NCBI GenBank assembly: GCA_002269645.1
Contig: NIVC01001668.1
Coordinates: 1 to 64,000 of the forward strand
Length of the DNA: 64,000 bases
DNA from: Macrostomum lignano
Lineage: Eukaryota
Direction: 5' to 3'
Below, one piece after another: positions 21,230-63,026 of this stretch. The notes under the pieces are model-generated. The model made no database searches and had not been told where the DNA came from. It saw nothing but the letters and a program-made list of their open reading frames with translations. Within the stretch, counting starts at the first letter, position 1, and each line of letters opens with the position of its first letter. Made by a program: the position numbers and the translations under genes.

Positions 21230-21400
<171 letters not shown>

Positions 21401-21539
21401 TAAGCAAAGTGCACGGTACTTTCACATTTTCAAATAAAAAAATGGAATTATAGCTTATTGGCTAAGAAGTTAATAATATATTGATAGTAAAAAAATGAAC
21501 TTTGACATCTGAAGAAATGGCACTTTGATTCCCTAGCAT

Positions 21540-25425: not shown

Positions 25426-25500
25426 TCCACTCTGTCCCCTCTCGAAACTTCACTCTGTCCGCTCTCGGAACTCCACTTTGTCCCCCCGCCCCCCCCGCAG

Positions 25501-25879
25501 CGCCATGCGAGACCAGTACATGCGCACTGGCGAAGGCTTTCTATGCGTGTTCGCCGTTAATAATCCAAAATCATTCGACGACATCGAGCAATACCGCGAA
25601 CAGATCAAACGCGTGAAAGACGCCGAAGAAGTGCCCCTAGTGCTGGTTGGCAACAAGACGGATTTACACGGTCGCACGGTGGACGTTCGCACAGCCAAGC
25701 ACCTGGCTGACGAGTTCGGCATTCCCTACGTTGAGACCAGCGCTAAGACGCGCCAAGGAGTCGACGACGCCTTCTATACTCTGGTGCGCGAGATTCGCAA
25801 ATTCAAAGAGCGCGGCGGCGATAAACGGCGCCGCGGCGGCAAAAGATCAAAGGCCCGGCTGAGGTGCAGTCTGATGTAA
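25501..25879 (+). CDS. RAS: Ras GTPase exon 3 (full protein 190 aa, CAAX = CSLM)
   Basis: [23 protein letters not shown], polybasic tail and CSLM-stop; total spliced CDS 573 nt is in frame. Confidence 0.97.
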
Positions 25880-27325: not shown

Positions 27326-27365
27326 TGAAGTTCTTTGCCATTTTGGCGCAGAAATTGAAAACGGT

Positions 27366-28948
27366 AGTAGTATTATTAAATTACACGCACCCCACATTTT
27401 TACATGTAAAAATGAATATAGTCCCCACCTACACTCGAACTGTAATACGCCTCCGTCAGTTCGAGCTAACGAACGAAACGCAACTCGCCCAAGCCGGCGT
27501 TCGATAAGGTACAAATCTTAGCTTTCTTATCTTAATACGACACACTAACCAACACTAGCGTTCTCCCAAAAGAAATATTGAATTCAAAGTCCAATTCTTC
27601 CTTAGCCTTGGCCATTTATTTCTGCAAAGTATATTTGACTGAATTCGCCGCAAGTCCATACGCATTAAAAACGAGTAAGCAAATTACCGCAATCTAATAC
27701 GCAGATAGTTCATCGCGAAAGAACGCAAACGATTATAACAGCGCTTAAACAGATTCTCGGCGCCACCACCACTAATCATGCTCGCTAGAAAATCCTTCAA
27801 ACCACCACCACGATGCAGTTTAAAGTATAAATAAAACAAAACCCATATACCACAGTGCAGACTTGTTGGTTCTTGAATAGCAAAACGCGAATATTCCCAA
27901 TTTCCCCCTCCACAATTCCGTATAAACCACCGACGTATTAACTCACATGGATTTAACCCCAAGGAATCGAAATACTCTCCCTTCCTAGAGCCCCTCCTAC
28001 CCAACCTAAAACCCCCCACCCATAACAAAACCCAATGAGAACCCGGCAAATTTGAAGTATCGGTATTCACGATCAGAAAATAATGCCTTCTGTCTCTCGG
28101 GATTCGCGGGATACTACTCAACAAATCGACAGGAAAAATACCCAAAAAACAAACGTCTTTAAAACCGTTACATAGAATAATCACAACACGTTGCAAGAAC
28201 AAGTTCGTTACACCTTCGCCTCGCCTCATTTCCAAGCGGTTCCTGGCACAACGTCCCGCAGTTCGGTAATCTGTAGTTGCTTGTCGAAAACACCACCGAA
28301 AATAACGTTATAGACCTCCGCTGTAGCCGTTCCAAAACGCATCTCCAGTCGGACATTCCCTTCCTTATATAATTGTACCGCCGGCGCAACTCCCCCGTCA
28401 GATCCTAACGAATACGCGAGTATCGTATACCCTCCGTTGTAGTCCGCCATCGAGAACCCCAAATCCCGTCCTTGTAAATACAAACCCAGTTGTTGACGCA
28501 GAGTTGTATACTCCTTTGCACAATCCCCTGTGAAGTCGAATTGACTAGGCCGTGTCGGTACCGCCTCACCATTTACGTAAACTCCAACGCTGATCAAATT
28601 CGCATGCACGAAATTGAACGGATTTGTCGCCAGACTTCCATTAAATGCAGTATTTCCAACGACTACCACCAGCAAAAGACGTGGCACTCCGCTCGGAAAC
28701 AGATTTTCGTGCGTATGGCTTAACGACCCTTGCGGTATTGTGAACGTACCCAATGATAAACTGCGATGAGGGTACAAGGCATTATGGGTCTTCAAACCAT
28801 GTGCATGGGCTCCAATCACACTGGCAGATGGCTGAACATACCGCAAACGAAGCTCCGCACTCTGAATCTCAACCTCGTAATCCTTTAACACTGCCTCACC
28901 AATCTGTGCGGCACTTAACACGAATTTGCTCTTTGCCGGTAGTAACTT
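27366..28948. repeat. Left arm of the 1583-bp inverted repeat
   Basis: Reverse complement of 41384-42966; four substitutions found by eye (27419, 27467, 27842, 28370). Confidence 0.95.
27684..28235 (-). CDS. Adenain-like cysteine maturation protease
   Basis: NTD..GSHW, YFDSLG and IQ..SLHCG give the H-D-Q-C catalytic set. Confidence 0.95.
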   Translation of the reverse strand: MEMRRGEGVTNLFLQRVVIILCNGFKDVCFLGIFPVDLLSSIPRIPRDRRHYFLIVNTDTSNLPGSHWVLLWVGGFRLGRRGSRKGEYFDSLGLNPCELIRRWFIRNCGGGNWEYSRFAIQEPTSLHCGIWVLFYLYFKLHRGGGLKDFLASMISGGGAENLFKRCYNRLRSFAMNYLRIRLR

Positions 28949-29548
28949 TATCCGCAAAGGCGTCTTTGACAACAAATACCGTGGCTGACGAAATAGATCC
29001 AAAAACAAAGGCCCTGAAACCGTACAAGTTCTCCCACCCGCAATTAGTGCCTGTCGCTTCACTCGCCCAACGTTCGCGACGCCGGTGGCATTCATTTTTC
29101 CAGCAGTGTCCTTGTAAAATCCCCAGGCAGCCAATCCGCCGTCTTGTCCCAACCGACCATACTCCAAAAGCGTCAGAAGCATGGCCTTGTACGGATACAT
29201 GAAGCTCCCGCCTTCAACGACCGTATCTCCTATCCGCAATTGCACGTCTTCGAACAGCGTACTCACCACCATGTTATTCAGACAGACATAGTTTTTCGCA
29301 GCATCCACAGCCCCTCCACTCTCGTCTACTACTCGGATTCCAACAGTTAGAACTGTTTCTTGTAAGTCGACATACAAATCTCCAGCCGGTACAATCTCGA
29401 ACTCAATTGGCCCTCCTTGCGTAATCCCATGTTGAGGCTGTATATCCGTGTAGCGACTGTCCACAACACTGAATTGTACTGGTGGGCTGTCAAATAACGT
29501 CAACTCACTTTTCAATCCAGCGACGTCAGGCCCCAACAACTGATCCAT
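28226..29548 (-). CDS. Major capsid protein (double jelly-roll, hexon-like)
   Basis: 440 aa; KSELTLFDSPPVQ, GPIEF, VDLQET, LDLFRQPRYL and NPFNF motifs typical of Polinton MCP. Confidence 0.93.
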   Translation of the reverse strand: MDQLLGPDVAGLKSELTLFDSPPVQFSVVDSRYTDIQPQHGITQGGPIEFEIVPAGDLYVDLQETVLTVGIRVVDESGGAVDAAKNYVCLNNMVVSTLFEDVQLRIGDTVVEGGSFMYPYKAMLLTLLEYGRLGQDGGLAAWGFYKDTAGKMNATGVANVGRVKRQALIAGGRTCTVSGPLFLDLFRQPRYLLSKTPLRIKLLPAKSKFVLSAAQIGEAVLKDYEVEIQSAELRLRYVQPSASVIGAHAHGLKTHNALYPHRSLSLGTFTIPQGSLSHTHENLFPSGVPRLLLVVVVGNTAFNGSLATNPFNFVHANLISVGVYVNGEAVPTRPSQFDFTGDCAKEYTTLRQQLGLYLQGRDLGFSMADYNGGYTILAYSLGSDGGVAPAVQLYKEGNVRLEMRFGTATAEVYNVIFGGVFDKQLQITELRDVVPGTAWK

Positions 29549-29941
29549 CTACTTGCCAAACAAACTGAATAACTTTTTAGTCGTGGCGCTCGGCTTTTTC
29601 TTTTTACGTATGCGTCTAACTCGCCGACCACGTCCAACCTGTTTTTTTACCGCAGGTGTCTTTCTGCTTATACCCTTTTTCCTGACTCGTCGTCGCTTAA
29701 CCACAACTGGTCCATCAGTAGTCGTCAATCTACGTTTCTTACCCATTCCAATCGTCTTCTTCAGGAAGCTTAAACCGCCCTCTACTAAATCCTTCCGAGC
29801 TCTACGTAGCACGGGATATATCACTCTCTCTGTTAAATTCGTCAAATATCCGTATCCCTCGTACACAGGTATCGAACTCGACCCACCACCCGTCCGCGGC
29901 TGTGTACTAGGTCCCGAATAGAATGCAAAAACCGGATCCAT
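29549..29941 (-). CDS. Basic Arg/Lys-rich putative core (pVII-like) protein
   Basis: 130 aa; basic C-terminal half; QPRTGGG..PVYEGYG N-terminus; abuts the MCP start. Confidence 0.65.
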   Translation of the reverse strand: MDPVFAFYSGPSTQPRTGGGSSSIPVYEGYGYLTNLTERVIYPVLRRARKDLVEGGLSFLKKTIGMGKKRRLTTTDGPVVVKRRRVRKKGISRKTPAVKKQVGRGRRVRRIRKKKKPSATTKKLFSLFGK

Positions 29942-29970
29942 GAATGCCGAGCGAAACTATACGTCAAAAT

Positions 29971-31113
29971 CTACTTAAAGTGCTTTGCTAATACCCGTGC
30001 TGTCTCTTTATCTAGATCTGATTCAGCCAACCACTGACCTCTCGAGTCGGGCATTCCCTCCCACTTGACAAAATATCGCCTGCCCTTCTTCCCCATACGC
30101 TCAACACGCTCGACCCGATCAATTTTAACAACCTCCGCCTCAGGTTCAGCCACTAGAAGCAGTTCACCTTGGTTGAATCGACCCTCCAACACTGTCGAAT
30201 CGTCCTCGGGGTCTAACAGACCATAAGACGGTGGCTTCGTAGAATACACCCGATGAATTCGATACACCCTATTACTCCATGTCGTTGTGTAACCCTTCTC
30301 AAATTTTCCCTTTTGACGTGCAAGTCGTACCCAATCACCAACCTTAAAACGCGGAATAGGCCTCACATCGTCGCCATACAACTCCTCCCACACCATGCCC
30401 TGCAGATGGCCATCCGCACTCACATCAATGGGGCTACGACCATTTAAACTGCGGTGTGGAGAGTTATTCAACGCAAGCTCTAATTTTGGTAGAACATCAA
30501 ACCACCGGGCCAGATTTCGAGTCCGAAATAGTCGTAGTAATCGCTCCTTCACGGTGCGTATCAATCGCTCAGCCATGCTCGCTTTGTAGGTACTCTGACT
30601 TACGAAAAATCGTACGCCCTCACGCTTTAACATCGACTGAGTTTCTCGCCCAAGAAACTCTCGACCAGCATCGCCTTGTAAGTACAGCGGTTTAAACCCC
30701 GTGCGGAATATCTCATACAATACACGGCTCACCTCACTTGGCTTCTTCGTCTTCAAAGCTCTCAAGCGAGCCAACCTAGTGAAACAGTCGACTAATACGA
30801 GGATGTACCTGTAACCACGGTTTTCGTCCTGATATTGCGGTAAGTCTGCCAAATCAATCTGCATTTGAAATTTTGCAACGGGCGGTAGTTGTATTTTCGG
30901 AGTTTTGAACTTCCGATTCGACTTCTGGAACAGATGTATCTCCTTCGTCCTACGCACCCACTTGTCAACAACAGCCTTGGCTTTTTTTTGCGTTAACTCC
31001 GGATACCTCCGCCTCAAAACTCGTATAAATTGCTTCTTATTACCACTAAACGCAGTAGGGCGTTCCAAGTCGAAAAATGCCACGTCCAGAAACTTAAAAA
31101 AAATCGCTTCCAT
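29971..31113 (-). CDS. Retroviral-type (rve) integrase with C-terminal chromodomain
   Basis: QIDLAD / QGDAGREF / AERLIRT DDE triad; YFVKWEG..QW chromodomain. Confidence 0.95.
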   Translation of the reverse strand: MEAIFFKFLDVAFFDLERPTAFSGNKKQFIRVLRRRYPELTQKKAKAVVDKWVRRTKEIHLFQKSNRKFKTPKIQLPPVAKFQMQIDLADLPQYQDENRGYRYILVLVDCFTRLARLRALKTKKPSEVSRVLYEIFRTGFKPLYLQGDAGREFLGRETQSMLKREGVRFFVSQSTYKASMAERLIRTVKERLLRLFRTRNLARWFDVLPKLELALNNSPHRSLNGRSPIDVSADGHLQGMVWEELYGDDVRPIPRFKVGDWVRLARQKGKFEKGYTTTWSNRVYRIHRVYSTKPPSYGLLDPEDDSTVLEGRFNQGELLLVAEPEAEVVKIDRVERVERMGKKGRRYFVKWEGMPDSRGQWLAESDLDKETARVLAKHFK

Positions 31114-31140
31114 CCTCCGTATTAGCGGCTCTCCAAATTT

Positions 31141-31314
31141 TTATGATGCAGAACCCACATTAGTATTGCAACAGTTAAAACTTGCCTTTACCGTTACGTC
31201 TCCGTCAGGCTCCTCTGCGCGCAGTACGCGTTCCAATAAATTCGCAATGCAACCACCCTCCCCCAAAAAACAAATTCTAAAACGCTTGTACAACCACTGA
31301 AACACATTCGCCAT
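31141..31314 (-). CDS. Small 57-aa ORF (MANVFQWLYKRFRICFLG...NCCNTNVGSAS), unknown function
   Basis: ATG-to-TAA ORF filling the gap between neighbouring co-oriented genes; below the ORF-track cutoff. Confidence 0.45.
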   Translation of the reverse strand: MANVFQWLYKRFRICFLGEGGCIANLLERVLRAEEPDGDVTVKASFNCCNTNVGSAS

Positions 31315-31357
31315 CCCCAGACTCGATATATTTCACGTAAAATACAATGCTTATACA

Positions 31358-32029
31358 TTACGCTAGAGTCTCATAATCTTCCAAGGCTTGCAAGTCCCCA
31401 CCGCGCGACTCTGACTCGGGAGTAGGTTCCATGGGTGTTCCTTCCTCCAGAACGTTTCGCATATGCCGCCCTAGCATCGACGGTGGAATTGATTCCCTGC
31501 GAAGCAGTGAGACGAAACGTTCCAGCTCTGCCGCCGGAGGCGATCTCCCTCGTTTCAATGGTTGGTCGCGAGTGACATACTCTACTAGCTCGTCAAAATC
31601 TCCTCCTCCAATCTCATTCGCAGCACCTGTCAGCCTTGCCTTCAGACGGTCGAAACGTGGTTGTACATTACGGGGGAGTCGCCTCCCCTTCTCGGTCTCA
31701 CCCTCCGTCGGGCCATCATGACCAACGGATGAGCGAACCTCTGGCGGGGTCTCACCATTCTTATTGTACAGAGACCGCGTTTGTAGCAACCGACTCTCCA
31801 AATCAGTTCTTTCCAACTGTGCGGTTGTAGGCTGCAGACTAGTCGATTCACCAATCTCCCGGTCAAGCCTATTCATCTCACCTTGCATTTCAACAATATT
31901 CTTACCCAAAGCGTCCACAGGTCCGTCCAATACTCCCGTCCTTCGCTCATCTTTCGCCGTACATTCCAAATAAGCCTGCAACGGCAGCAAAACCATTCGC
32001 TGAAGAGTTCCTCCTCTATTGACTGGCAT
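31358..32029 (-). CDS. Hypothetical Polinton protein (223 aa, coiled-coil N-terminal half)
   Basis: Co-oriented, tightly packed ORF with ATG; no motif recognised. Confidence 0.75.
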   Translation of the reverse strand: MPVNRGGTLQRMVLLPLQAYLECTAKDERRTGVLDGPVDALGKNIVEMQGEMNRLDREIGESTSLQPTTAQLERTDLESRLLQTRSLYNKNGETPPEVRSSVGHDGPTEGETEKGRRLPRNVQPRFDRLKARLTGAANEIGGGDFDELVEYVTRDQPLKRGRSPPAAELERFVSLLRRESIPPSMLGRHMRNVLEEGTPMEPTPESESRGGDLQALEDYETLA

Positions 32030-32030
32030 A

Positions 32031-32468
32031 TTACCTACGCCGTCCGGCCCGAATTGCTCGAACTAGATTTGCCGTCCCCGCAGCCGTACCGGCCAATCCC
32101 GATGTAATCCCTAGAGCCGTGCCAATGGCTGGCAAAGCAGAAATTATCGGAGCAAGAAACGGCAGGAAACCACCACGCTGTACCAAAATTTCCTTCCTGG
32201 CTCTAGTTGATTTTTTCTCCTTCAACAATTCTTGTATCGGTTTCCGATAGCGTTCTAAACGTTTCTTGTCACACGACTTTAACGGCACGCGTCCTTTTAC
32301 GATATTCAAAAGAAACTCAACCAGGCAACGCACCTCGCCCGGACTTAAACTTCGCAGAAATCGCTTGCGCTGGTCCAATCCCCGAAGCCTCGCGACAACT
32401 TGCAATAGGAAGGCACACTGGGACAATGATCGCGCGCTTTGTACGCTCTTTTCTGTCAGCCCGGTCAT
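32031..32468 (-). CDS. Putative virion protein with an adenovirus pX/Mu-like hydrophobic C-terminus
   Basis: QRGG-FLPFLAPIISALPAIG resembles the adenovirus pX segment MRGG-ILPLLIPLIAAAIG. Confidence 0.65.
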   Translation of the reverse strand: MTGLTEKSVQSARSLSQCAFLLQVVARLRGLDQRKRFLRSLSPGEVRCLVEFLLNIVKGRVPLKSCDKKRLERYRKPIQELLKEKKSTRARKEILVQRGGFLPFLAPIISALPAIGTALGITSGLAGTAAGTANLVRAIRAGRRR

Positions 32469-32512
32469 TGTCTATCATGCCTTCTACTGATTCCGACTGT
32501 ACTTGCTTATAA

Positions 32513-33469
32513 TCAATCGTCTCGTACCCTGAAGTGCAGCACAGCAATCACATGGCTTCCATCAGGGAAATTCAAATCTTGCCCCCGTTGGTCGGCCAGA
32601 CGAATGGAGATCTCATTAATGTAGCTCCGATTTGTCCGCAAGTAATATGGCGTCTGCAAAGCATTTCCGTCTCGTCGAAATATTCCGTTCTTTTCCTGGC
32701 GAAACTCAACCACGCGAAGTAGCGGAACCTGACGACTTCCAACCATTTGATATTCAACAATGTCGCTATAGCAGTACATGTAAACACTCCGCAGTATCGC
32801 TTCGGGTATTCTATCCAAATAGACCTTCGTCAGACCCCACGCACGATTTTTCCTCCAATACTCAACCACCTCCTTTAACGTATCCCCGGCAGGCCGTATT
32901 ACCTGCGTACTCTTCATCCAGACGGCGAAACCAGGTTCCAAGACAGCACGAAAATCGTACCAATTCGAATCTAATATACCTGCCTCGTCCATTGCATTCG
33001 TTATGTTCGTCCAGGATTCACCCGCCGCATCCGCGGGTTGGGTGCGTCCGTCGTGAGCTGTCAAACCCCACGTACTGAAACCAAAGCATGTCAAAAAACT
33101 CCTTGGCAGTTCAATGCCCATACGTCGGCTGCCGGAATTTCGCAAATACCAAACATATGCTTTAGTAGCCGGCGTCCACGACAAGTGTACCTCCAAATCA
33201 TCGGCCTGCCAGACCTTACCCAAGAAGACTTCATCTGTTTTCTCGATAATTTTCTCGATGTTGCAATAATATATCACCTTCACCTCTTCTCGAAGTTCCG
33301 CCGAGGAAGTTTCCGCCGGCGGGCTGTTACATAGCAAATCCACCAAAGCCACTTCATACTTCCCAGCCGGCGCTAGATTCAATGGTGTAGTTAGCCGCAC
33401 CCGAAACTCGTGCGCAGAATTGGTCGGATAACTACGATCGTTTGACGGAATAAACACAAAGAAACTCAT
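32513..33469 (-). CDS. Minor capsid protein (penton-like)
   Basis: PSN...N....FRVRL..PL.L...YEVAL N-terminus; YCYSDIV..Q.VG...VPLLRVV and I.IRL.DQ.G C-terminus. Confidence 0.88.
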   Translation of the reverse strand: MSFFVFIPSNDRSYPTNSAHEFRVRLTTPLNLAPAGKYEVALVDLLCNSPPAETSSAELREEVKVIYYCNIEKIIEKTDEVFLGKVWQADDLEVHLSWTPATKAYVWYLRNSGSRRMGIELPRSFLTCFGFSTWGLTAHDGRTQPADAAGESWTNITNAMDEAGILDSNWYDFRAVLEPGFAVWMKSTQVIRPAGDTLKEVVEYWRKNRAWGLTKVYLDRIPEAILRSVYMYCYSDIVEYQMVGSRQVPLLRVVEFRQEKNGIFRRDGNALQTPYYLRTNRSYINEISIRLADQRGQDLNFPDGSHVIAVLHFRVRDD

Positions 33470-33499
33470 AATCTCACCCCATAAGCTGTAGCCGCTTCC

Positions 33500-34213
33500 T
33501 CAAAACTTGCTTATAATATCCTCCTCCTTGATAGTCTCCGGACGCATATAAACAACCTGGTGAGTGTCACTCGGAAAGACATTCGTCCGTATGCGTATCA
33601 TATCCGGCGTGTCCTGTCGTAAGTCTATGAAGAGATAGCTGAAGGCCTTGTCACCCGTCGCGTCGTCATAAGCCTGCACCAGAAATCTACTAGCTCGGGG
33701 GTACATCTGCCGACCCAAATGTTCAACGGCGCTACGATCCCTAACATTTCGGCTTAAACAGATATAACTCGTCGATAAACTTCTTTTTCTTGCCTCAGGA
33801 TCCGCAGGGTCAAACAAATTTTGGCACAAATAAAGACAAGTCAATGGCGTATGATGAGCCAATTTGGTGAATACAGCGGTAAAAGCGCGTTGCTTTGCAA
33901 CTTCACCCTGCAAATCATCAACAACGACTAAATCGTGCGGCTTGAATCTAGCCAACAACTGATCGGGGAATCCCTGTACGAAGTGACATTCGCCACTTCC
34001 ACCCAATGTCCAACATTCTCGAACTCGTTTTTCCTCAGACGAATGTAACTCTGTACCGTGACACCAAATTAGACGCCTTGGTACTACTCGAAACAGACCC
34101 AAGCGCTCCCTTACCAGTCGAAGCACCCATTCAGTCTTTCCCGAATTCGAAGGACCTGCGACGATAAACGTCGAGTCATGAGCAAATCGCAAGTCGAATG
34201 TACGCCTGTCCAT
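33500..34213 (-). CDS. FtsK/A32-like packaging ATPase
   Basis: Walker A GPSNSGKT, Walker B VVVDD, LCQNLF and Q.YP motifs; first ATG at 34213. Confidence 0.93.
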   Translation of the reverse strand: MDRRTFDLRFAHDSTFIVAGPSNSGKTEWVLRLVRERLGLFRVVPRRLIWCHGTELHSSEEKRVRECWTLGGSGECHFVQGFPDQLLARFKPHDLVVVDDLQGEVAKQRAFTAVFTKLAHHTPLTCLYLCQNLFDPADPEARKRSLSTSYICLSRNVRDRSAVEHLGRQMYPRASRFLVQAYDDATGDKAFSYLFIDLRQDTPDMIRIRTNVFPSDTHQVVYMRPETIKEEDIISKF

Positions 34214-34214
34214 T

Positions 34215-34670
34215 CTAGGCACCCAAACGCTGTTTTACGTTCATAACACGGGATACCAGTTTTGCGGCCAAACGTTCCCCCCACTTAGTTGTAGGATCCG
34301 CAGCAATCTCTCGAGCTCCTGCTTCGAGTTGTTGATCGGCCTTTGAACGCTCTGCCACGTCCGAGTGCTTCTCGTATGCCAGGTCGTGTAAGAGACACAA
34401 TTTATCGAGCCGATTCTTCCCAGTATCGCCCCGCGCTAAACGTTCTCTCAATCTGGTCCCGGGGCCGCAGAATTGGTAACCCCCCGGCAAATGAAGCTCC
34501 CCTGGGAGATGATTTATTACCCAATTAACAATACCAAACCCCGTCTGACCTCGACGACGAGATTTCTTAGCTCGAGTCGACTTTGCTGCTGTCGAACGCA
34601 CTCGCTTCTTCTTCTTCTGTCGGCCTTGTGTTCCCATCCCACTTAATTGTACCAAAAGAACCAATTGCAT
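34215..34670 (-). CDS. Parvovirus-type phospholipase A2 domain protein (PLA2X)
   Basis: YQFCGPG Ca-binding loop, LDKLCLLHDLAY (HD), downstream AD; basic N-terminus; first ATG at 34670. Confidence 0.9.
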   Translation of the reverse strand: MQLVLLVQLSGMGTQGRQKKKKRVRSTAAKSTRAKKSRRRGQTGFGIVNWVINHLPGELHLPGGYQFCGPGTRLRERLARGDTGKNRLDKLCLLHDLAYEKHSDVAERSKADQQLEAGAREIAADPTTKWGERLAAKLVSRVMNVKQRLGA

Positions 34671-34783
34671 TTGCTTATACACACAGTGGTTAAATCCACG
34701 AGCAGTATATTGTATTAATAATCAAAGTGACAAGCCGCCACCAATTCCCACCACCGACCGACGGGCTCCGGGCGTGACCAGCA

Positions 34784-35401
34784 TCACATGTTAGTGCTGC
34801 CCATGCCACCCGTCTCGCGAACCGCCACCGGCTCCGGTTGTCGGTGCCACACCCCCGGCAGCTGGCCCTCGCGAGCTCGACCGACTTCTACCGGGGGCGT
34901 GACGCAGCGCTCCAGAATCAATTGGGCCACGCTGGTGGCACACGACAGATGAACTTTCTCATCTGACGTGTTGTGCAGGATCACGCGGAGTTCCCCGGTA
35001 TAGTCCGGGTCAACCACGCCACCCTGCACATTTAGGCCTCGGTTGGCCCAACTGGACCGGCTCGCTATCCGACCATAGGTGCCCGGCGGCAGCATCACCC
35101 GGAGGCCGGTGCGAATGATGGCCGTGTCAAAGGCTTCCACAGTGCGGTCTTCGCACGTGGCTAGGTCGTAGCCCACCGACCCGGCCGTAGCTCGCCGAGG
35201 CATCACTGCCCCGGCATCCGTGAGCACTACGCGCAGCGGGACCGTCGAGCAAGAGTCGGAGCTCATAGTGGCTGCGGGATCATAGTTCATCTTATGCTTA
35301 GGAGGTTCTTCGTCCTCTAAAATAAGTCTAGTACTACCCGCGTAATCCTCGTCCCAATCAAAAAAACTAAGCCTAGTACTAATCCCCTGCACTGCCATCA
35401 T
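34784..35401 (-). CDS. dut: dUTPase with acidic N-terminal extension
   Basis: Five motifs: VGYDL, GRIASRSS, GVVDPDYTGE, VAQLI and RETGGMGST; ATG 4 nt after a strong polypyrimidine-AG. Confidence 0.92.
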   Translation of the reverse strand: MMAVQGISTRLSFFDWDEDYAGSTRLILEDEEPPKHKMNYDPAATMSSDSCSTVPLRVVLTDAGAVMPRRATAGSVGYDLATCEDRTVEAFDTAIIRTGLRVMLPPGTYGRIASRSSWANRGLNVQGGVVDPDYTGELRVILHNTSDEKVHLSCATSVAQLILERCVTPPVEVGRAREGQLPGVWHRQPEPVAVRETGGMGSTNM

Positions 35402-35526
35402 AGGCCTAGAAAAACGAAGAGAAAGAAGGAAAGGCGGATTCTTGCATATACATTCGATAATTGCGCGCATATATTGTGTGCAGAAAAAGCATAAACAGAC
35501 AGAAAACAGAGAGCGGAGAGAACAAG

Positions 35527-38500
35527 TCAAGTCAACCGCCAATGACCAAATGGGAGGGATGAGTAGGGATCGAGCCAGGCTCGCTTCGTGTCGAAGAAGC
35601 TAAGCGCCTGCTTGCGCTGCTCAAGAAGATAAATCTTCTGTCGTCGCGAAGTAATCGTCCGCATCGTTACATGCTCCAAAACTCGATCCTTCAACACACT
35701 CAAAAATACATTGTGCTTCATACCTCTTACAATCGACTTCGACACGCCCTTGCAACGCACAATCTGACAGAGGCTTTCCTTTGCATACACCATTGAATAG
35801 TTTTTCGGGCGTAGAAATGCAAACTCCAACAGTGTACAACCGGAAACTTCATCTTTCCAGGCCATTAACTTCCCTTTATACTTTGTTGTATAAAGCGGAT
35901 GAGAAGGTGGATAATTACTAGTGTCTAACACACCGCACTCCACCAAGTCTTTAAACAATGTCTCCTGAGGACTCGTCTCCGGGTCGGCCATAACCAATGC
36001 CAGGATCAAACTATCCGTATCTCCACCAAGCACGCGGGCAGAAGCAAGCGACCTATGGCATTGAATCCTTGAATAGAAAAACTCGTAGACAAATGTTTTC
36101 GCAAGGTCCAGAATAGCGCTACCAATCAGAATTGGCTTGTTTAGCAATACTCGACGAGGAGTCAAACTCACGCCCGCTAGACGATCTGTATACAGAATCA
36201 CGTCCATAAACTCCTCTTTAGCGACATACGTTTCCAACTTCTCGGCAGTAGTACACATGCGATAGCTGAGTCGGTCTCGAACTCGCTGCAGAAACTTGCC
36301 GTACACAGCATTGTTCAATAGTTTAAAGAAATCTCGATCGAAATCGCTAGTCGCCTCAGACCGCCGACGAATATTATGTTCAATATATTCCTGTAGAATA
36401 GGACCTTCTACGAATTCGAGAACACGATTAACCCGCGTCACGCGCATGCCTAACTCGAGGTAAAGACGCAATGCTCGATGATGTACAATGTACCCTGTTT
36501 TATGCGTAACAGAGCCAATTAGTTTCCTTGTCGGAGAAGTGAATCGTTTTACGTCCTCGTATACCTCCGCATTCCTCTTCCTGGGATCAAGCTGGCGTTG
36601 CAGACAAACCCAATCCTGCTTCATATGCTCGGTTAAATAGGCACTATCAATTCTTTCATGGCCAATAGCCAGAGGTAGATCGGCAGTTGAGTCGTGCAAA
36701 AACTTTGGGTAGTAAAGATCGACATTCAATAACGCCCCTCGTCCATTCGAGCAATAGCTAGACAACCAAGCCAAAAACTTGCTCGACTTGTTCGGATTTT
36801 CCAACTCAGCTGCCTCATCATCAACTGATAGATTTTCAATCACTTCACGGGGCAACCAACGATAGGCCTTATACGGCAGCGCCTGCACCATACAACTGGC
36901 ATAAAGAGAATTAGCATCAAGGTAGGCCAAGTGAGTGCCATACGGTGCATTCCGCCGTAGTTCTCTTAAATTGTCGTCGTCGTCATCCAGCTGCCGACGA
37001 CATTCTTCTACCATTGGATTATTTGCCGTAGTAAGATGGCGAGTGCCAAAACTGAACCCACCTCGAATCGAAGCTTCAACCTCGGAGTACATACGAGCGT
37101 CTGTAAACAACTCGATCGGCTTCTTCACCTTCAACAGACACGCAGCCAGACTATACATTGGCGATCCGAGAAAATGACACACATCCAAACCGTATTCTCG
37201 AATTGCAGTCCGACGAAAACTCTCAAATACGTCGCATAACAGTAGTACATCCAACAGTAAATACGCAGTCAGATAGTCACGCAAATTGGCACAATCAAAC
37301 TCTTGCCAACTCTGCTGAGCGCGTGTGTACTCCTCCTTAGAACACTCTTGCCGGGTCATTGCGTCGTAAAACAAATCTCGCGATGGCAGTTCAGTCACAC
37401 TGTCCAACTTCTCTTCAGAGTCCAAGTAACAATACGGAAACACTCCCTTCTGCTGCAGAGTAGACAGTTGGAGTTTAGGATAAACATTCAGCAAATCTCG
37501 ACAGTGTACCAATTGTTCCTGCGTCAAACGGTTTGCCAGACTAGCTAGACTTGTCGACAAGTACGCAAACGTGTCCTTGAAGCAGATTTCAAACCAAACA
37601 AAATTCTTCTTCTTCTGCTTTTGTTGCTGCGGCCGTTGACTGCCAACCAGCAGCGGTACCTTGAACTTTAATGAAAACGTCTTAAACCGTTCCCTAGACT
37701 CGGGAAGAACGTGCAGTTGAACGTCGTCTTCTCCACTAAACACATTGTACACCTCACGAACAATTATTTTACCGTCATATCCTCGAAGATTGTGCAGGTA
37801 GACGATAATTCGATAGCGCTGCAGGGCAAGTTTTCGATTGCACGACATGCAAGCCATTCCACGTGGAAGACCACTCAAATGACAATGATCCCAGACTTGA
37901 GACTCGTCAGCGGAAAACTCGCGACGACAGACGTAGCATCGATCTGTGCTAGGACGCTGACCTAGATACTTTCTAAGCATTGGTCTATAAGTCATCTTGC
38001 TAGTCGCATTAGTTACTTCGAATGCAAGCTCGCGCAGAGCCAAGAGAAACCTGCCAATACAATCTGTTGTGCCAGGCGTAGAATAAAACAACTTGCATGG
38101 AGTATTGTATCTGCTCAACAAATCCTCCCTCGTTACACTATCCAAATCCGGATCGACAACCAAACGAAAGGCCACACAAACGGGCACGTGAATTTGTAAA
38201 ACATGGCTGTTAGCCGTAGGCACTGGCAGGCCCTTGACGAGGCCCCCCGATGCCTTTTCAACAGGTACAAGTAGACTCTCAATATCAGCATAAACCAAAT
38301 ACAGCGGCGGCAGTCGAGTCTCGTAGGCTGAAAAAGACAAAAATGCTTTGCCCTCCTCTGGTAAAACCTCCTCCGTGACTGGCTTTGGCGTTCGAATGAA
38401 GCCGCCGCCGCCGCCGCCGCCTGGTTGCTCCTCCGTCGTCTGGCCACACACGTGTTCTTTCAAGATATAATCCCAAGACGTGGTGTGAATAAAGCTCGCC

Positions 38501-39975
38501 AGACATTCAGGACAATAGCGCCGGCGTTTAGCACGAGAACTCAACAGCCTATCCAGATTTAGCACCGCCATGTAGTGTCCATACTTGAATTCTGCGTAAG
38601 GTGGTATGAACAGACAATTGACTGGCGCAAGGTCACCAGTGGAACGACGAAAATTAAAAAACAGCACGGCAGTATTCGTGGCATGACTCCAGACAAACAC
38701 ACGCATCAGTCTAATTCGAGGGTTCAGCCGGCAAAACTTTCTGTAGCTCCCAATTGAGTGACGAGTCACTCCGGCGCGCGTAAATCGAAAGCTTTTCAGC
38801 CAAGGCCTGTAAGACGCCTTTCGCCTTTTACGGGCTTGCCCTTCGACCTGTGAGGAAAAGACGCTCGACACGACAGCATACATAAAACAATCATGCTGAT
38901 CTGCTCGGTGCGGGCGTAGAAACAAAACCGCTCCCGGCATACGACCAACAGCCAGTGGAACGCGGAATGGAACGGAACGGGTCGGAGCGGATTCTGTTGG
39001 ACCGCCGCCCGCCTGCGCGCCCGCCGCCGCCGCCGCCACGCCCGCCGCCACCACCACCGCCGCCCCGCCACCCGCTCCCCACACGTCCTGCTGCTGCTGC
39101 CGACGACTGCTAGTGTTCGACTGTAGTAGTAGATATTTTCGGCGGAATATGCACAGCATAACGTCGACCTTGACAACGCCGAGGAACTTCCAGTTACTAC
39201 CTCGGGACTGAAAGTTGTCTAATTTAGCTACCAGATCGTTTGTTGTCTCGCTGTACCATTGGTTGAAAACGTCCTCAGAGAGAAGAAGTACACGGCGGCC
39301 GGCGGCTGGAGCATTCGCATCGAAGGAGACCATAACGACTTTGGAATTGAAGAAGGGCGCGATTACTTCTACCTCTTCGTTGTGGGGGGATTCACCAGCA
39401 GCCGTGTCATTGGCGGGGGGATAACGGGTACGATACATTTTTACATTAAGATGTATACATGTACGGAGTAAACAGTCCGCAGATCCGAGAGAGTTAAAAA
39501 GACGAAAAACTGGAACTTGCAGTTGTGGAAGTAACTCGCTGGGTGGTTCGGTATCGCCATCGTCCTCGTCCAGCAGAGGCGTGAACGTCAGAAAGTTCGC
39601 CCGACCTCGGTGTGCGGACTCGGTATGTTGTACCGACCAGCCTGGTGGAGTGTCCTCTTCGATTAGCCGACGCACTGGTTCTCGAAGTAAAAGTTGGTCT
39701 GGTTGATAGCACGAGCCATTGTGCGAGTGCCCATGGAGGGCGGCTTGACTGTTGAATCTCTGCCGGCACACGGGGCATCTGATTTGTTTCGTCGTCGTCG
39801 TCGACGGCTGGAATGGTGTTGGCGATTGTTGGCGACGGGGTGGTTGTGATAATCGCCTAAATAGTTTGCTCGGTGGTAAAAATAAGGAAGGAATGCACAG
39901 CCTTAAGTTTGGTGGACAGTCCAAAAATGTCCTCCGCCGCGTGGTTAAACTGTATTTTACTTTGCAGAGATACAA
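35527..39975 (-). CDS. polB: Protein-primed family B DNA polymerase with N-terminal Zn finger, terminal-protein/vOTU region and endonuclease-VII insertion
   Basis: YADIES exonuclease motif, DHCH..G..RG..C..CN EndoVII, DANSLY, KLLNNAVYGK, GGDTDS, RPKNY; ORF starts at TTG and the first ATG is codon 180. Confidence 0.97.
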   Translation of the reverse strand: MYLCKVKYSLTTRRRTFLDCPPNLRLCIPSLFLPPSKLFRRLSQPPRRQQSPTPFQPSTTTTKQIRCPVCRQRFNSQAALHGHSHNGSCYQPDQLLLREPVRRLIEEDTPPGWSVQHTESAHRGRANFLTFTPLLDEDDGDTEPPSELLPQLQVPVFRLFNSLGSADCLLRTCIHLNVKMYRTRYPPANDTAAGESPHNEEVEVIAPFFNSKVVMVSFDANAPAAGRRVLLLSEDVFNQWYSETTNDLVAKLDNFQSRGSNWKFLGVVKVDVMLCIFRRKYLLLQSNTSSRRQQQQDVWGAGGGAAVVVAAGVAAAAAGAQAGGGPTESAPTRSVPFRVPLAVGRMPGAVLFLRPHRADQHDCFMYAVVSSVFSSQVEGQARKRRKASYRPWLKSFRFTRAGVTRHSIGSYRKFCRLNPRIRLMRVFVWSHATNTAVLFFNFRRSTGDLAPVNCLFIPPYAEFKYGHYMAVLNLDRLLSSRAKRRRYCPECLASFIHTTSWDYILKEHVCGQTTEEQPGGGGGGGFIRTPKPVTEEVLPEEGKAFLSFSAYETRLPPLYLVYADIESLLVPVEKASGGLVKGLPVPTANSHVLQIHVPVCVAFRLVVDPDLDSVTREDLLSRYNTPCKLFYSTPGTTDCIGRFLLALRELAFEVTNATSKMTYRPMLRKYLGQRPSTDRCYVCRREFSADESQVWDHCHLSGLPRGMACMSCNRKLALQRYRIIVYLHNLRGYDGKIIVREVYNVFSGEDDVQLHVLPESRERFKTFSLKFKVPLLVGSQRPQQQKQKKKNFVWFEICFKDTFAYLSTSLASLANRLTQEQLVHCRDLLNVYPKLQLSTLQQKGVFPYCYLDSEEKLDSVTELPSRDLFYDAMTRQECSKEEYTRAQQSWQEFDCANLRDYLTAYLLLDVLLLCDVFESFRRTAIREYGLDVCHFLGSPMYSLAACLLKVKKPIELFTDARMYSEVEASIRGGFSFGTRHLTTANNPMVEECRRQLDDDDDNLRELRRNAPYGTHLAYLDANSLYASCMVQALPYKAYRWLPREVIENLSVDDEAAELENPNKSSKFLAWLSSYCSNGRGALLNVDLYYPKFLHDSTADLPLAIGHERIDSAYLTEHMKQDWVCLQRQLDPRKRNAEVYEDVKRFTSPTRKLIGSVTHKTGYIVHHRALRLYLELGMRVTRVNRVLEFVEGPILQEYIEHNIRRRSEATSDFDRDFFKLLNNAVYGKFLQRVRDRLSYRMCTTAEKLETYVAKEEFMDVILYTDRLAGVSLTPRRVLLNKPILIGSAILDLAKTFVYEFFYSRIQCHRSLASARVLGGDTDSLILALVMADPETSPQETLFKDLVECGVLDTSNYPPSHPLYTTKYKGKLMAWKDEVSGCTLLEFAFLRPKNYSMVYAKESLCQIVRCKGVSKSIVRGMKHNVFLSVLKDRVLEHVTMRTITSRRQKIYLLEQRKQALSFFDTKRAWLDPYSSLPFGHWRLT

Positions 39976-40268
39976 TTATGTAGACAATTTGAATATTTAG
40001 GAATGAACAGCAGGCTAGTAAGTAGTAGGTCGTTGATGGTGGTTGAAAGAATAGAATCGTATAACTTAGTCAATGGTAGTGTTTTTAGGGGTCTGAATCA
40101 GTTCGAATGGATCATCATGATAAACAAAAATCGTTGGGTACGCATGGGAATTTTACCTTCAGGTAGTAATAGTGGTAGGTGGTGTTTTTTCAACTTGGTA
40201 GGGGCTCGGTTGAATTTAGGTGTTTATTACTACAGCAGAAAATCGTTGTTGTTAATATCAAGTGCATG

Positions 40269-41069
40269 TCAGAGCTCACGACGAATGATGCCGCCAACAA
40301 GATGGGCTAGATCGGTCGTAGATGTATCCGATCTGATTAGAATTTCGTGTACGTTCGAGTAGTCCTGGTAGTGTCGTGTAAACGCCTCGTCTAGCGATCG
40401 TAGATAGTCCAGGGAGATGCCAGTCTCCTCACCGCTGCGTCCGCGCTGCGCGATGCGTTGAATGGCCAACTCCGGGTCAATGCGCAGGTAAATAAGCGTC
40501 GTGTTCGCGCCGGTAAAGGGTACCCCAGTCGCTTCGAGGACGTCTAGTTGGCGCTGAGCAATCGCCCATTCGGTGTCAGACAGCGAGCCTTGACGGTGTA
40601 GTACGTCTTGGAATGCTCGAGCCGACCCGAGGCAGCGGTCGAGGATAACCACCTTGTTGTTGGATTGTTGGTTAACCTCATTCCGGACCTGGGTGGTAAC
40701 ACAAGATTGGCAAAAGTAGCTATACCGTGCGTGTCTTTCGACATTGGTTGTACATGCAGTAGGAGCTATACGAAAGGAATTGCTAGATACTATAGTACCA
40801 CTTACTTTGCTGTCTCTGTCGAGCAAGTCGTGGGAGACGTGCTGTTGGAATGCGACGGCCGGAAGCTCGCCTCGATAGAATGACTGAAGCAGATTTACCG
40901 AGTCCGGGAGGAGCGGGTGTCGCGCGTACTGGTGAACAGGCTCGGGACCGAAGACGGCTTTGTCGGCCCAACCCTCGAGGCGGGAGGTGAGAGCCAGTTC
41001 TCGAAGCAACGTCGACTTCCCGGCACCGATTACGCCCTCCAGGAGAAAAATGCGAGACTGGCTCGTCAT
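40269..41069 (-). CDS. Deoxynucleoside kinase (dNK family) with a probable intron at 40689-40805
   Basis: LEGVIGAGKST P-loop, PEPV, ILDRCLGS, IYLR..PE....RI..RGR..E lid, YL..L...F. Confidence 0.88.
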   Translation of the reverse strand: MTSQSRIFLLEGVIGAGKSTLLRELALTSRLEGWADKAVFGPEPVHQYARHPLLPDSVNLLQSFYRGELPAVAFQQHVSHDLLDRDSKVSGTIVSSNSFRIAPTACTTNVERHARYSYFCQSCVTTQVRNEVNQQSNNKVVILDRCLGSARAFQDVLHRQGSLSDTEWAIAQRQLDVLEATGVPFTGANTTLIYLRIDPELAIQRIAQRGRSGEETGISLDYLRSLDEAFTRHYQDYSNVHEILIRSDTSTTDLAHLVGGIIRREL

Positions 41070-41114
41070 ATTGGCTAGAATTGGAACAAATTCTGGTTTC
41101 GGAGCGGCTTCCTG

Positions 41115-41383
41115 ACACAATTGTTTAACAATGTTGATCATTTCTAAAATCTGGCTAGTAGTCTTTGCACCTATTATAACGATCTTAAGGGAAAGAAAAA
41201 TATTGCACACCGTCCTATTGAGTGGAGCAGTACTACGGAGGGTGATGGCTTGTGGGAATATCTCCGCGTCGTAATACAGCCGAGCTGTGTGAAACGGCCC
41301 GATAAATTTTTTCAGGGTCGAAAATTTGAGTCCAGGATAGTGGAGCAGACCAACGGTTGTAGAGCTGATTATACGAATCGATG
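41115..41383 (-). CDS. TATA-binding-protein-like repeat, 5'-truncated, in frame with the dNK
   Basis: YDAEIFPQAITLR...TVCNIFLSLKIVIIGAKT aligns by eye with TBP YEPELFPGLIYR...LLIFVSGKIVITGAK. Confidence 0.65.
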
Positions 41384-42106
41384 AAGTTACTACCGGCAAA
41401 GAGCAAATTCGTGTTAAGTGCCGCACAGATTGGTGAGGCAGTGTTAAAGGATTACGAGGTTGAGATTCAGAGTGCGGAGCTTCGTTTGCGGTATGTTCAG
41501 CCATCTGCCAGTGTGATTGGAGCCCATGCACATGGTTTGAAGACCCATAATGCCTTGTACCCTCATCGCAGTTTATCATTGGGTACGTTCACAATACCGC
41601 AAGGGTCGTTAAGCCATACGCACGAAAATCTGTTTCCGAGCGGAGTGCCACGTCTTTTGCTGGTGGTAGTCGTTGGAAATACTGCATTTAATGGAAGTCT
41701 GGCGACAAATCCGTTCAATTTCGTGCATGCGAATTTGATCAGCGTTGGAGTTTACGTAAATGGTGAGGCGGTACCGACACGGCCTAGTCAATTCGACTTC
41801 ACAGGGGATTGTGCAAAGGAGTATACAACTCTGCGTCAACAACTGGGTTTGTATTTACAAGGACGGGATTTGGGGTTCTCGATGGCGGACTACAACGGAG
41901 GGTATACGATACTCGCGTATTCGTTAGGATCTGACGGGGGAGTTGCGCCGGCGGTACAATTGTATAAGGAAGGGAATGTCCGACTGGAGATGCGTTTTGG
42001 AACGGCTACAGCGGAGGTCTATAACGTTATTTTCGGTGGTGTTTTCGACAAGCAACTACAGATTACCGAACTGCGGGACGTTGTGCCAGGAACCGCTTGG
42101 AAATGA
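41381..42106 (+). pseudogene. Duplicated C-terminal 241 aa of the major capsid protein
   Basis: Protein identical to the MCP C-terminal half; ATG formed at the repeat junction. Confidence 0.8.
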
Positions 42107-42966
42107 GGCGAGGCGAAGGTGTAACGAACTTGTTCTTGCAACGTGTTGTGATTATTCTATGTAACGGTTTTAAAGACGTTTGTTTTTTGGGTATTTTTCC
42201 TGTCGATTTGTTGAGTAGTATCCCGCGAATCCCGAGAGACAGAAGGCATTATTTTCTGATCGTGAATACCGATACTTCAAATTTGCCGGGTTCTCATTGG
42301 GTTTTGTTATGGGTGGGGGGTTTTAGGTTGGGTAGGAGGGGCTCTAGGAAGGGAGAGTATTTCGATTCCTTGGGGTTAAATCCATGTGAGTTAATACGTC
42401 GGTGGTTTATACGGAATTGTGGAGGGGGAAATTGGGAATATTCGCGTTTTGCTATTCAAGAACCAACAAGTCTGCACTGTGGTATATGGATTTTGTTTTA
42501 TTTATACTTTAAACTGCATCGTGGTGGTGGTTTGAAGGATTTTCTGGCGAGCATGATTAGTGGTGGTGGCGCCGAGAATCTGTTTAAGCGCTGTTATAAT
42601 CGTTTGCGTTCTTTCGCGATGAACTATCTGCGTATTAGATTGCGGTAATTTGCTTACTCGTTTTTAATGCGTATGGACTTGCGGCGAATTCAGTCAAATA
42701 TACTTTGCAGAAATAAATGGCCAAGGCTAAGGAAGAATTGGACTTTGAATTCAATATTTCTTTTGGGAGAACGCTAGTGTTGGTTAGTGTGTCGTATTAA
42801 GATAAGAAAGCTAAGATTTGTACCTTATCGAACGCCGGCTTGGGCGAGTTGCGTTTCGTTCGTTGGCTCGAACTGACGGAGGCGTATTACAGTTCGAGTG
42901 TAGGTGGGGACTGTATTCATTTTTACATGTAAAAATGTGGGGTGCGTGTAATTTAATAATACTACT
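41384..42966. repeat. Right arm of the 1583-bp inverted repeat
   Basis: Ends ...aataatACTACT; coordinates mirror the left arm exactly. Confidence 0.95.
42097..42648 (+). CDS. Second full copy of the adenain-like protease (one V/I difference)
   Basis: Identical to 27684-28235 except WVL vs WIL. Confidence 0.9.
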   Translation: MEMRRGEGVTNLFLQRVVIILCNGFKDVCFLGIFPVDLLSSIPRIPRDRRHYFLIVNTDTSNLPGSHWVLLWVGGFRLGRRGSRKGEYFDSLGLNPCELIRRWFIRNCGGGNWEYSRFAIQEPTSLHCGIWILFYLYFKLHRGGGLKDFLASMISGGGAENLFKRCYNRLRSFAMNYLRIRLR

Positions 42967-43879
42967 AGTGTCATATAACTTGAAAGCGACACTTATTATA
43001 ATCCTGCGTGCCATTAGTCTTGTGGCTGCAGCCAGGTCCGTGACTAGCTATCTATTAATGGCGTGAAGCATTCCCGGTGGCAGTGAAATTAGATATTGAA
43101 CAAATGGCCTCTGTCTATGCATAATCGCTACTGGCTTAGCTAAGGTATTGGATTTATGCTGGCTGTCAGGGCCTTCTGTCTGCTAACATGGGCGTGGTCC
43201 CTCAGTGAATTGGATTTTCTGCCCTGCCCTCCCCTTTTTCCATCCTCATCTGTCCCTGATTAGAAATCTTCCCCTTTGCAGCCTACATATCGGGTTTAGC
43301 GTTGCCTGCCCCATCATGCAGAGGATTTGTGGGATCTGCGAGAGCGCTGGTCAGTATTGGGCGGGGCGATGCTGGTACGACAGGGATTAGAGAGAGAGAG
43401 GGGGGTGAGGATCACAAATATACCTATATAGTCTATAAGATCAATCTACTTTAGAATTGGGGTTCTCATAGCGTTGAAATTTGCATTTTTATTTTAAAAA
43501 TACTATAGACGATAGGAGCTTATTATTATTTTTTTTTATAAAATTCCGCTATCTGCCTCGCTCCCGGCCCCTGAACTTGACTGACAGGCGATCCCTAATG
43601 CGCTCACTATTTTTAGTTCGCCGCTGCTCAACAGAGACACAAGACGACTTAAAAGGCAAACAGGGCAGAGGAGAGGAGAAGGCAAAGAAAAAAACTGACT
43701 GACTGTGTTGCAATCATTTGAGCACTTCTCTCTGGGCGCTCGTTCCGTCGACTGGTTGAATCTTCTCTCTGCAGCTTAATTATAGAGCTGCCACCGGCTG
43801 TTCCCTGGGGAGGCAGGCAGGGGCTACCGCTCAGCTCAGCTCACATCGTTTTTTTGAGTGCCGGTCCGTGTGAGCAGCC

Positions 43880-63026
<19,147 letters not shown>

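What the first reader, a model, noticed from the sequence alone, without database searches (positions are those of the whole stretch)
27366..42966. Gene-containing 1583-bp inverted repeat with no target-site duplication
Seen: 27366-28948 and 41384-42966 are mirror copies (four substitutions found), containing the whole protease and the 3' half of MCP. The 6-bp flanks (aacggt vs agtgtc) do not match, although Polinton integrases normally create 6-bp TSDs. The junction has imperfect microhomology (GATAAAGTT vs GATGAAGTT). Inference: either two independent copies fused back-to-back by deletion or recombination, or template-switch end repair followed by rearrangement, or an assembly join between two loci. 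The native right end is missing.
Basis: partly seen in the sequence, partly recalled or inferred. Interest (0 to 1): 0.72.

Follow-up and report, generated by a model that had tools for sequence, protein, structure and literature searches.

The report
Two flatworm Polinton insertions joined
The long mirror repeat is real, but it is not this virus-like element's normal end: one copy lost its usual end and gained a duplicate of the other, and the stretch seems to join two separate insertions, by recombination or by an assembly error.

Summary
The 1583-bp inverted repeat exists (5 substitutions, not 4; no target-site duplication, TSD) around a 15.6-kb Polinton/Maverick in a Macrostomum lignano-like genome. 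It is not the family's native TIR. In 4 of 4 sequencing runs laid, the dominant contig leaves the window at 41383 into different DNA, and the junction cuts a TBP-like gene, removing about its first 90-100 residues. The flanks appear to belong to two insertions. The left junction is seen in 3 runs; in one it has no right-arm partner, and in two a flank fitting its own 6-bp TSD is suggested. Differences from run contigs rise about tenfold right of ~37.5 kb (15/4443 versus 3/9063 bp). Best reading: copy B gained a duplicated capsid-protease end by a template switch at a 3-nt microhomology. The window then switches from young copy A to B inside their shared middle, by ectopic recombination or assembler misjoin; short contigs cannot tell which. 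No listed contig bridges the inner junction, though rare forms are pruned. TIR regeneration and TSD-less chimeras have precedent (EMALE virophages, Galileo). A one-off rearrangement of a known kind of element; modest interest.

The parts
27360..27365 (+). Left 6-bp flank (target site of copy A)
   Evidence: Sequence; this junction is seen as a loose end in run X3 and as a member of the 3-contig loose-end consensus in X1 and X13
27366..28948 (.). Left arm: the family's normal capsid/protease end, starting AGTAGT
   Evidence: run contigs carry its letters at 42490, 42546 and 42865 in 4 of 4 runs
27684..28229 (-). Adenain-like maturation protease, 181 aa
   Evidence: ORF; no Pfam hit; weak match to ASFV S273R protease, E 0.039; His/Asp/Gln-Cys motifs seen by eye
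28226..29548 (-). Double jelly-roll major capsid protein, 440 aa, intact
   Evidence: 103 homologs incl. Maverick-type 'F54H12.2-like' proteins; model pLDDT 92; Foldseek top hit Sputnik MCP E 3e-16
29549..29941 (-). Small basic ORF, 130 aa (core-protein-like; inferred from composition)
   Evidence: no Pfam hit
29971..31113 (-). rve integrase with chromodomain, 380 aa
   Evidence: PF00665 E 5e-7, PF00385 E 1.5e-5
31358..32029 (-). ORF of 223 aa, no family found
32031..32468 (-). ORF of 145 aa with adenovirus protein X-like tail
   Evidence: PF05829 E 1.3e-4, under the curated cut-off
32513..33469 (-). Probable minor capsid protein, 318 aa (label from position and recalled motif, not tested)
   Evidence: ORF; no Pfam hit
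33500..34213 (-). Packaging ATPase, 237 aa
   Evidence: Pox_A32 E 0.023, weak; Walker A motif seen by eye
34215..34670 (-). Parvovirus-like PLA2 domain protein, 151 aa
   Evidence: PF08398 E 1.3e-8
34784..35470 (-). dUTPase, 228 aa
   Evidence: PF00692 E 1e-26
35527..39438 (-). Protein-primed DNA polymerase B with endonuclease VII-like segment, 1303 aa
   Evidence: PF03175 E 2e-20, PF02945 E 5e-8
37299..37947 (.). Approximate zone where the window changes from near-identity with run contigs (copy A type) to a more diverged type (copy B)
   Evidence: Tables 3 and 8; Fisher tests; limits are rough
40269..41069 (-). Deoxynucleoside kinase domain, with an in-frame 126-nt GT..AG segment that an annotated model splices out
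   Evidence: PF01712 E 5e-24; P0001 lacks these 42 residues
41066..41381 (-). 3' half of a TBP-like gene, in frame with the kinase, cut at its 5' side by the junction
   Evidence: PF00352 E 6e-4; matches residues 88-176 of P0004 and 104-196 of P0005, both TBP-family; Atlas first hit TBP, 0.91
41380..41384 (.). Inner junction 41383|41384, non-homologous, with 3 shared nt just before it
   Evidence: other copies go on differently behind 41383 in 4 of 4 runs
41381..42106 (+). Junction-born 241-aa ORF: MCP residues 201-440 behind a new ATG; starts inside a strand of the first jelly roll
   Evidence: model strand 198-204; exact protein not in the protein collection
42103..42648 (+). Second protease copy, intact, one residue different
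41384..42966 (.). Right arm: duplicate of the capsid/protease end, ending ACTACT
   Evidence: its letters at 42490, 42546, 42865 are in no listed contig of 4 runs
42967..42972 (+). Right 6-bp flank (target site of copy B)
   Evidence: a host contig piece of run X14 appears to begin exactly at 42967 (table 3)

Best explanation
The window is a composite of two insertions of one young Polinton/Maverick family. Step 1 (inferred): in copy B the normal end upstream of the genes was lost and replaced by a copy of the capsid-protease end. DNA synthesis running in from that end for 1583 bp switched template at a 3-nt microhomology into the TBP-like gene, during strand-displacement replication or during repair of a break in the chromosome. 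Step 2 (inferred): the window runs from the flank and first ~10 kb of a very young, ordinary copy A into copy B somewhere near 37.3-37.9 kb, inside the more than 12 kb that the two share at about 99.7% identity. That gives unmatched flanks (no TSD) and arms that differ at 5 sites. The switch is either ectopic homologous recombination or a misjoin by the assembler; I put the misjoin at about 70 in 100 of this reading. Shown: the repeat, the missing TSD, the cut gene, the different usual end, the reality of the left junction. Inferred: two loci, the place of the switch, the mechanism of the junction.
For: (1) In 4 of 4 runs a deep contig covers 569-770 bp up to 41383 and then goes on with 255 or more unlike letters; the MCP contig runs unbroken through 28949/41384. 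(2) The junction removes about 87-103 N-terminal residues of a TBP-like protein, judged by its two full-length relatives. (3) X3 has one unbranched terminal contig (42434-42967) that runs into the window's LEFT flank and carries left-arm letters. (4) The 3-contig consensus behind 42967 matches the left flank at 17 of 30 (X1) and 18 of 30 (X13) letters, counted by hand; a member gives 16.8, a non-member 8.0, P(>=17) 5e-5. Its first five letters are what results if the third contig carries the TSD mate of the left flank; a random flank gives this 1.0-1.7% of the time (post hoc). (5) Differences from run contigs: 3 in 9063 bp left versus 15 in 4443 bp right (p 1.5e-5); without the arm 2/7480 vs 11/2860 (X14), 0/6753 vs 5/2429 (X13), 2/6051 vs 8/2671 (X1). 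(6) An X14 host contig piece appears to begin at 42967; if the left flank abutted the right flank in the empty site it would begin at 42966, since both bases are T. (7) Precedent: regenerated TIRs on truncated EMALEs (PMC8547959), TIR extension and TSD-less chimeras in Galileo (PMC3573991); 36% of one public M. lignano assembly lies in scaffolds chimeric between subgenomes (bioRxiv 10.1101/2023.04.19.537444).
Against: No listed contig bridges 41383|41384 or 42966|42967 and none carries right-arm letters, so copy B is not directly seen in any run (370 pieces, 225 difference rows and 44 loose ends were not shown; contigs drop rare forms). The mosaic test used only the long pieces that one search listed (X14 7, X13 6, X1 7, plus the arm), left X3 out, and compares with majority letters of a multi-copy family, so a recombinant copy A or uneven polishing could mimic it. 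Points 4 and 6 rest on 1-5 letters. It needs two events where the direct-fusion rival needs one. The published chimerism figure concerns homeologous switches, and I do not know which assembly the window comes from.
Confidence: 0.55

Rival explanations
1. Direct fusion at the junction: copy A runs all the way to 41383 and was joined in one step to the middle of the MCP gene of an oppositely oriented copy B, by deletion between neighbouring copies or by microhomology-mediated break-induced replication.
For: One event explains the junction, the missing TSD and the 5 arm differences; flanks behave as two target sites; 3-nt microhomology.
Against: The excess of differences starts about 3.5 kb inside the junction and has the same order as in the right arm. 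An end fitting A's TSD seems to persist in X1 and X13, though on another chromosome copy this would be allowed. Two insertions of a low-copy family side by side are unlikely a priori (inference).
Confidence: 0.25
2. Single locus: one copy regenerated its end by copying its own other end, and the TSD was later lost by a deletion of adjacent host DNA.
For: Same junction chemistry; precedent for TIR regeneration (PMC8547959, PMC3573991).
Against: The right arm differs from run contigs at 4 sites and the left arm at 1 (inferred from piece counts), which fits poorly with self-copying; both termini are intact to the last base, so a deletion would have to stop exactly at the terminus; X3 shows the left insertion without a second arm.
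Confidence: 0.09
3. The inner junction itself is an artefact (chimeric long read or bad contig join); no copy B with this junction exists.
For: No listed contig bridges the junction in 4 of 4 runs; neither junction-born protein is in the protein collection (but none of the 8 window proteins asked about was).
Against: The join is non-homologous, without N or simple repeat; ORFs on both sides are free of frameshifts; the arm differences are 5 of 5 transitions; overlap assemblers join at homology (general knowledge).
Confidence: 0.09
4. The 1583-bp gene-containing repeat is the native TIR of the family.
For: Length is near the upper range reported for Polintons (100-1500 bp, PMC10748475; 46-1447 bp in vertebrates, PMC8097293).
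Against: 4 of 4 runs continue differently at 41383; the junction cuts two genes.
Confidence: 0.02

Closest known systems
Polintons/Mavericks of animals (adintoviruses; PMC8097293, PMC8502044)
   Same: pPolB, rve integrase, double jelly-roll MCP, protease, ATPase, PLA2 and protein X-like genes, (AGT)2//(ACT)2 termini; all genes on one strand, as reported for Xenopus tropicalis elements.
   Different: Carries dUTPase, deoxynucleoside kinase and TBP-like genes; this copy has a gene-containing duplicated end and no TSD, so it fails the 'intact' definition of PMC8097293.
Truncated EMALE virophages with regenerated TIRs (PMC8547959, section 10)
   Same: Integrated capsid-encoding element whose TIR arose after a truncation.
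   Different: 3 of 33 elements in a protist; the passages read do not say that whole genes lie in the regenerated TIR.
Galileo extended-TIR and chimeric copies (PMC3573991)
   Same: Internal sequence recruited into the TIR by repair from the other end; chimeric copies with non-matching flanks, where the authors also weigh assembly error.
   Different: A cut-and-paste P-element-type transposon without polymerase or capsid; recruited sequence is not a capsid gene.
Copy-back / snap-back defective viral genomes (recalled; listings only)
   Same: A template switch gives a genome with two copies of one end.
   Different: Usually short and helper-dependent; here polymerase, integrase and a whole MCP remain.

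Membership tests
Polinton/Maverick | Protein-primed DNA polymerase B | tested here: met
   PF03175 E 2e-20, 1303-aa ORF
Polinton/Maverick | Retroviral-type integrase | tested here: met
   PF00665 E 5e-7 (just under the curated cut-off) plus chromodomain
Polinton/Maverick | Double jelly-roll major capsid protein | tested here: met
Polinton/Maverick | Packaging ATPase and adenain-like protease | tested here: inconclusive
   Only weak hits: Pox_A32 E 0.023, S273R E 0.039; motifs and positions fit
Polinton/Maverick | Minor capsid protein | not tested
   318-aa ORF without Pfam hit; not folded
Polinton/Maverick | Terminal motif (AGT)2//(ACT)2 | tested here: met
   motif as in PMC8097293 section 7
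Intact Polinton insertion | 6-bp target-site duplication | tested here: not met
   Other family ends show flanks that fit as TSD mates (CTTGTT in X13, AACAA in X14; 5 of 6 letters visible)
Intact Polinton insertion | Native TIR shared by family members | tested here: not met
   4 of 4 runs continue differently at 41383
Element with regenerated/extended TIR | Internal sequence duplicated into the other end, cutting native sequence there | tested here: met
Chimeric copy (two insertions) | Each flank has its own TSD mate elsewhere | tested here: inconclusive
   Suggested for the left flank (1-2% by chance, post hoc); not seen for the right flank
Assembly misjoin | No long read phases the left flank with the junction | not testable with these tools

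The most novel reading that the evidence does not exclude
Copy B is a copy-back Polinton that was mobile in this form: a genome with two identical capsid-protease ends (1.58-kb TIRs), made by template switching during protein-primed replication, which kept polymerase, integrase and a whole capsid gene, lost the first half of its TBP-like gene, gained a second protease and a 241-aa half-capsid ORF, and was integrated with its own TSD. It would be a genomic record of panhandle-type end regeneration in an animal Polinton, in a laboratory model animal where it can be tested.
Probability: 0.2. Interest if true: 0.55.

Novelty: new variant of a known kind. Interest (0 to 1): 0.3.

Why it matters
If the junction is real, it shows how Polinton TIRs can grow by swallowing genes, which bears on their wide length range and on the assumed panhandle replication. 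It also warns that TIR-finding pipelines can report a composite of two insertions as one 'complete' element with a long TIR. Apart from the repeat, the window documents a young Polinton family with unbroken core genes in a regeneration model flatworm; searches for Macrostomum lignano + Polinton (1 paper, unrelated by its listing) and adintovirus + flatworm (0) found no description, but Repbase and subscription papers were not searchable.

Tried and rejected
A search for longer proteins with the TBP-like remnant found none among 61 candidates. Exact look-up found none of 8 window proteins, junction-born or not, so it says nothing on the junction. The first 111 residues of P0002 are not in the window and gave no usable Atlas hit; their origin stays open. 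Host genes do not test contiguity: Ras ends left of the element and the PITP-domain gene starts right of it. Contig depth was not used as copy number, as the tool warns; arm depth is 0.7-1.6 times core depth and an internally deleted derivative (joint 28985-34237 in X13, X14) confounds it. Rejected: the new ATG as a sign of selection, since two of its three letters lie in the shared GAT, the ORF starts inside a strand of jelly roll 1, and 7 of 9 coding differences tested from 37947 to 42546 are non-synonymous. Rejected: a shifted TSD.
Full report
Observation. The repeat is real: 27366-28948 and 41384-42966 are reverse complements over 1583 bp with 5 substitutions, all transitions. It holds the whole protease ORF and MCP codons 201-440. 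The ends read AGTAGT...ACTACT, the motif given for vertebrate Mavericks (PMC8097293, section 7 read). The 6-bp flanks differ and no shifted duplication exists. The window has no N.

What the element is. Between the ends lie, all on the minus strand, a protease, a double jelly-roll MCP (103 homologs; model pLDDT 92; best structural match Sputnik MCP, E 3e-16), an rve integrase with chromodomain, a protein X-like ORF, a probable minor capsid protein (untested), an ATPase, a PLA2-domain protein, dUTPase, a 1303-aa pPolB and a deoxynucleoside kinase. This is a Polinton/Maverick. Kinase segments identical to the window's are labelled Macrostomum lignano in NCBI and UniRef, so the host is that flatworm or very close to it. 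Host genes on either side are a Ras gene and a PITP-domain gene (the second label rests on recalled motifs).

The repeat is not native. I laid 4 of the 18 runs found on 28949-44040. In 4 of 4 a deep contig follows the window for 569-770 bp up to 41383 and then continues with unlike DNA, 267 to 408 letters to the contig's end; the same 30 letters are shown for all four. Read by eye, they hold no stop in the frame of the gene that is cut there. That gene is TBP-like: the remnant hits PF00352 (E 6e-4; Atlas 0.91) and aligns to residues 88-176 and 104-196 of two TBP-family proteins of 182 and 208 aa (2 hits), so about the first half is missing. In all four runs the MCP contig passes unbroken through the other breakpoint. 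Contigs that match only the last ~64 bp (from 42903) in X1, X13 and X14 are a candidate for a short, imperfect native TIR; this was not settled.

The junction. The join makes an ATG in frame with MCP 201-440, but this ORF starts inside strand 198-204 of the first jelly roll, and I see no sign of selection (7 of 9 coding differences tested from 37947 to 42546 are non-synonymous). No listed contig bridges the junction. This is not proof of absence: 370 pieces were not shown and contigs drop rare forms.

Two insertions. In X3 a single contig covers 42434-42967 with left-arm letters and runs into the window's left flank: the left insertion exists in an independent sample with no sign of a second arm. 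In X1 and X13 the consensus of three loose ends behind 42967 matches the left flank at 17 and 18 of 30 letters (hand count; member 16.8, non-member 8.0). X13 and X14 show two further flanks that fit as mates of a 6-bp TSD (5 letters visible). Given those, the first five consensus letters are what the left flank's own TSD mate would give; a random flank does so 1.0-1.7% of the time (post hoc). An X14 host piece appears to start at 42967, one base later than if the two flanks abutted in an empty site. These last points rest on few letters.

A mosaic. Against run contigs the window differs at 3 of 9063 bp left of 36.7 kb and 15 of 4443 bp from 37.9 kb on (p 1.5e-5). Leaving the arm out, the contrast holds in each of three runs (p 3e-5, 1.3e-3, 1.8e-3). 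The tests used only the long pieces listed, left X3 out because its contigs differ more throughout that part, and compare with majority letters. Taken at face value, the left ~10 kb come from a very young copy A, and the rest, including both sides of the junction, from a more diverged copy B.

How it most likely arose. B gained a duplicate of its capsid-protease end by a template switch at the 3-nt homology, during strand-displacement replication or break repair (inferred; an internal inversion would give the same junction but needs two breakpoints). The window then passes from A to B in their shared middle, by ectopic recombination or assembler misjoin (confidence 0.55 for this composite; misjoin somewhat favoured). 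Rivals: direct A-B fusion at the junction (0.25), single locus with lost TSD (0.09), artefactual junction (0.09), native TIR (0.02).

Comparison with what is known. Polinton TIRs of 100-1500 bp and TSDs of 5-8 bp (PMC10748475, passages) and 46-1447 bp (PMC8097293) make the length itself unremarkable. Three of 33 EMALE virophages are truncated yet flanked by TIRs that 'must have regenerated' (PMC8547959, passages and section 10). Galileo shows TIR extension by repair from the other end, and 12 chimeric copies with non-matching flanks (PMC3573991, passages). TSDs flank only 58% of elements in two integrase-rich PLV clusters (PMC12220804, passages). In one public M. lignano assembly 36% of the length is in scaffolds chimeric between subgenomes (bioRxiv 10.1101/2023.04.19.537444, passages); which assembly this window comes from is unknown to me. 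TBP-like and dUTPase genes are named in figure legends for related MELD viruses (PMC8502044, passages), so they have precedent. Passages of PMC9356565, PMC5730564, PMC12801592 and PMC10675990 added nothing on the repeat; the two M. lignano papers among them hold no 'Polinton' or 'Maverick'. Searches (listings, plus the papers named) showed no report of a Polinton TIR holding capsid and protease genes; supplements were not read and may list such cases.

Verdict. Observation confirmed; interpretation partly supported. A one-off rearranged, probably composite copy of a known kind of element, possibly in part an assembly product. Interest 0.3; 0.55 if B proves to be a mobile copy-back form (probability about 0.2).

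Noticed in passing
window 40269-41381 (-): A TBP-like domain is in frame with a deoxynucleoside kinase; the kinase holds an in-frame 126-nt GT..AG segment that an annotated M. lignano model splices out, and X3 contigs show skips at 40632-40665 and 40688-40815 (short sides, 24 letters).
   Followed up: partly
window 28985-34237: Runs X13 and X14 show a joint skipping 5251 bp: an internally deleted derivative lacking most virion genes and the integrase.
   Followed up: no
window 34500-41383: In run X3 contig depth is 78-222 over the dUTPase-polymerase-kinase-TBP part against 34 over the capsid part, with more differences; perhaps a higher-copy derivative of that half.
   Followed up: no
window 42905-42940: X1, X13 and X14 hold a terminal variant that skips 34 bp between two short G-rich direct repeats, with its own flank.
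   Followed up: partly
window 21300-25879 (+): Ras-family gene: exon with the DPTIEDSY motif at about 21302 and a 3' exon at 25505-25879 (PF00071 E 1e-28).
   Followed up: partly
window 43880-52800 (+): PITP-domain (rdgB/PITPNM-like; label recalled) gene starting 913 bp right of the element, with exons near 46959, 47414 and 52718.
   Followed up: partly
window 3591-4492 (+): Broken mariner-like transposase fragments next to a 27-bp minisatellite (label from recalled motifs such as YSPDLAP).
   Followed up: no
window 1319-2200 (-): 293-aa ORF rich in Ala, Gln and His runs, no Pfam hit; probably an exon of a host regulator.
   Followed up: no
window 1-64000: Very dense mini- and microsatellites (65 TRF rows); one minisatellite ends 40 bp left of the element.
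   Followed up: no
window 42967-42992: The right flank opens with a 6-bp inverted repeat 14 nt apart, and its first three letters equal the element's terminal AGT; probably chance.
   Followed up: no
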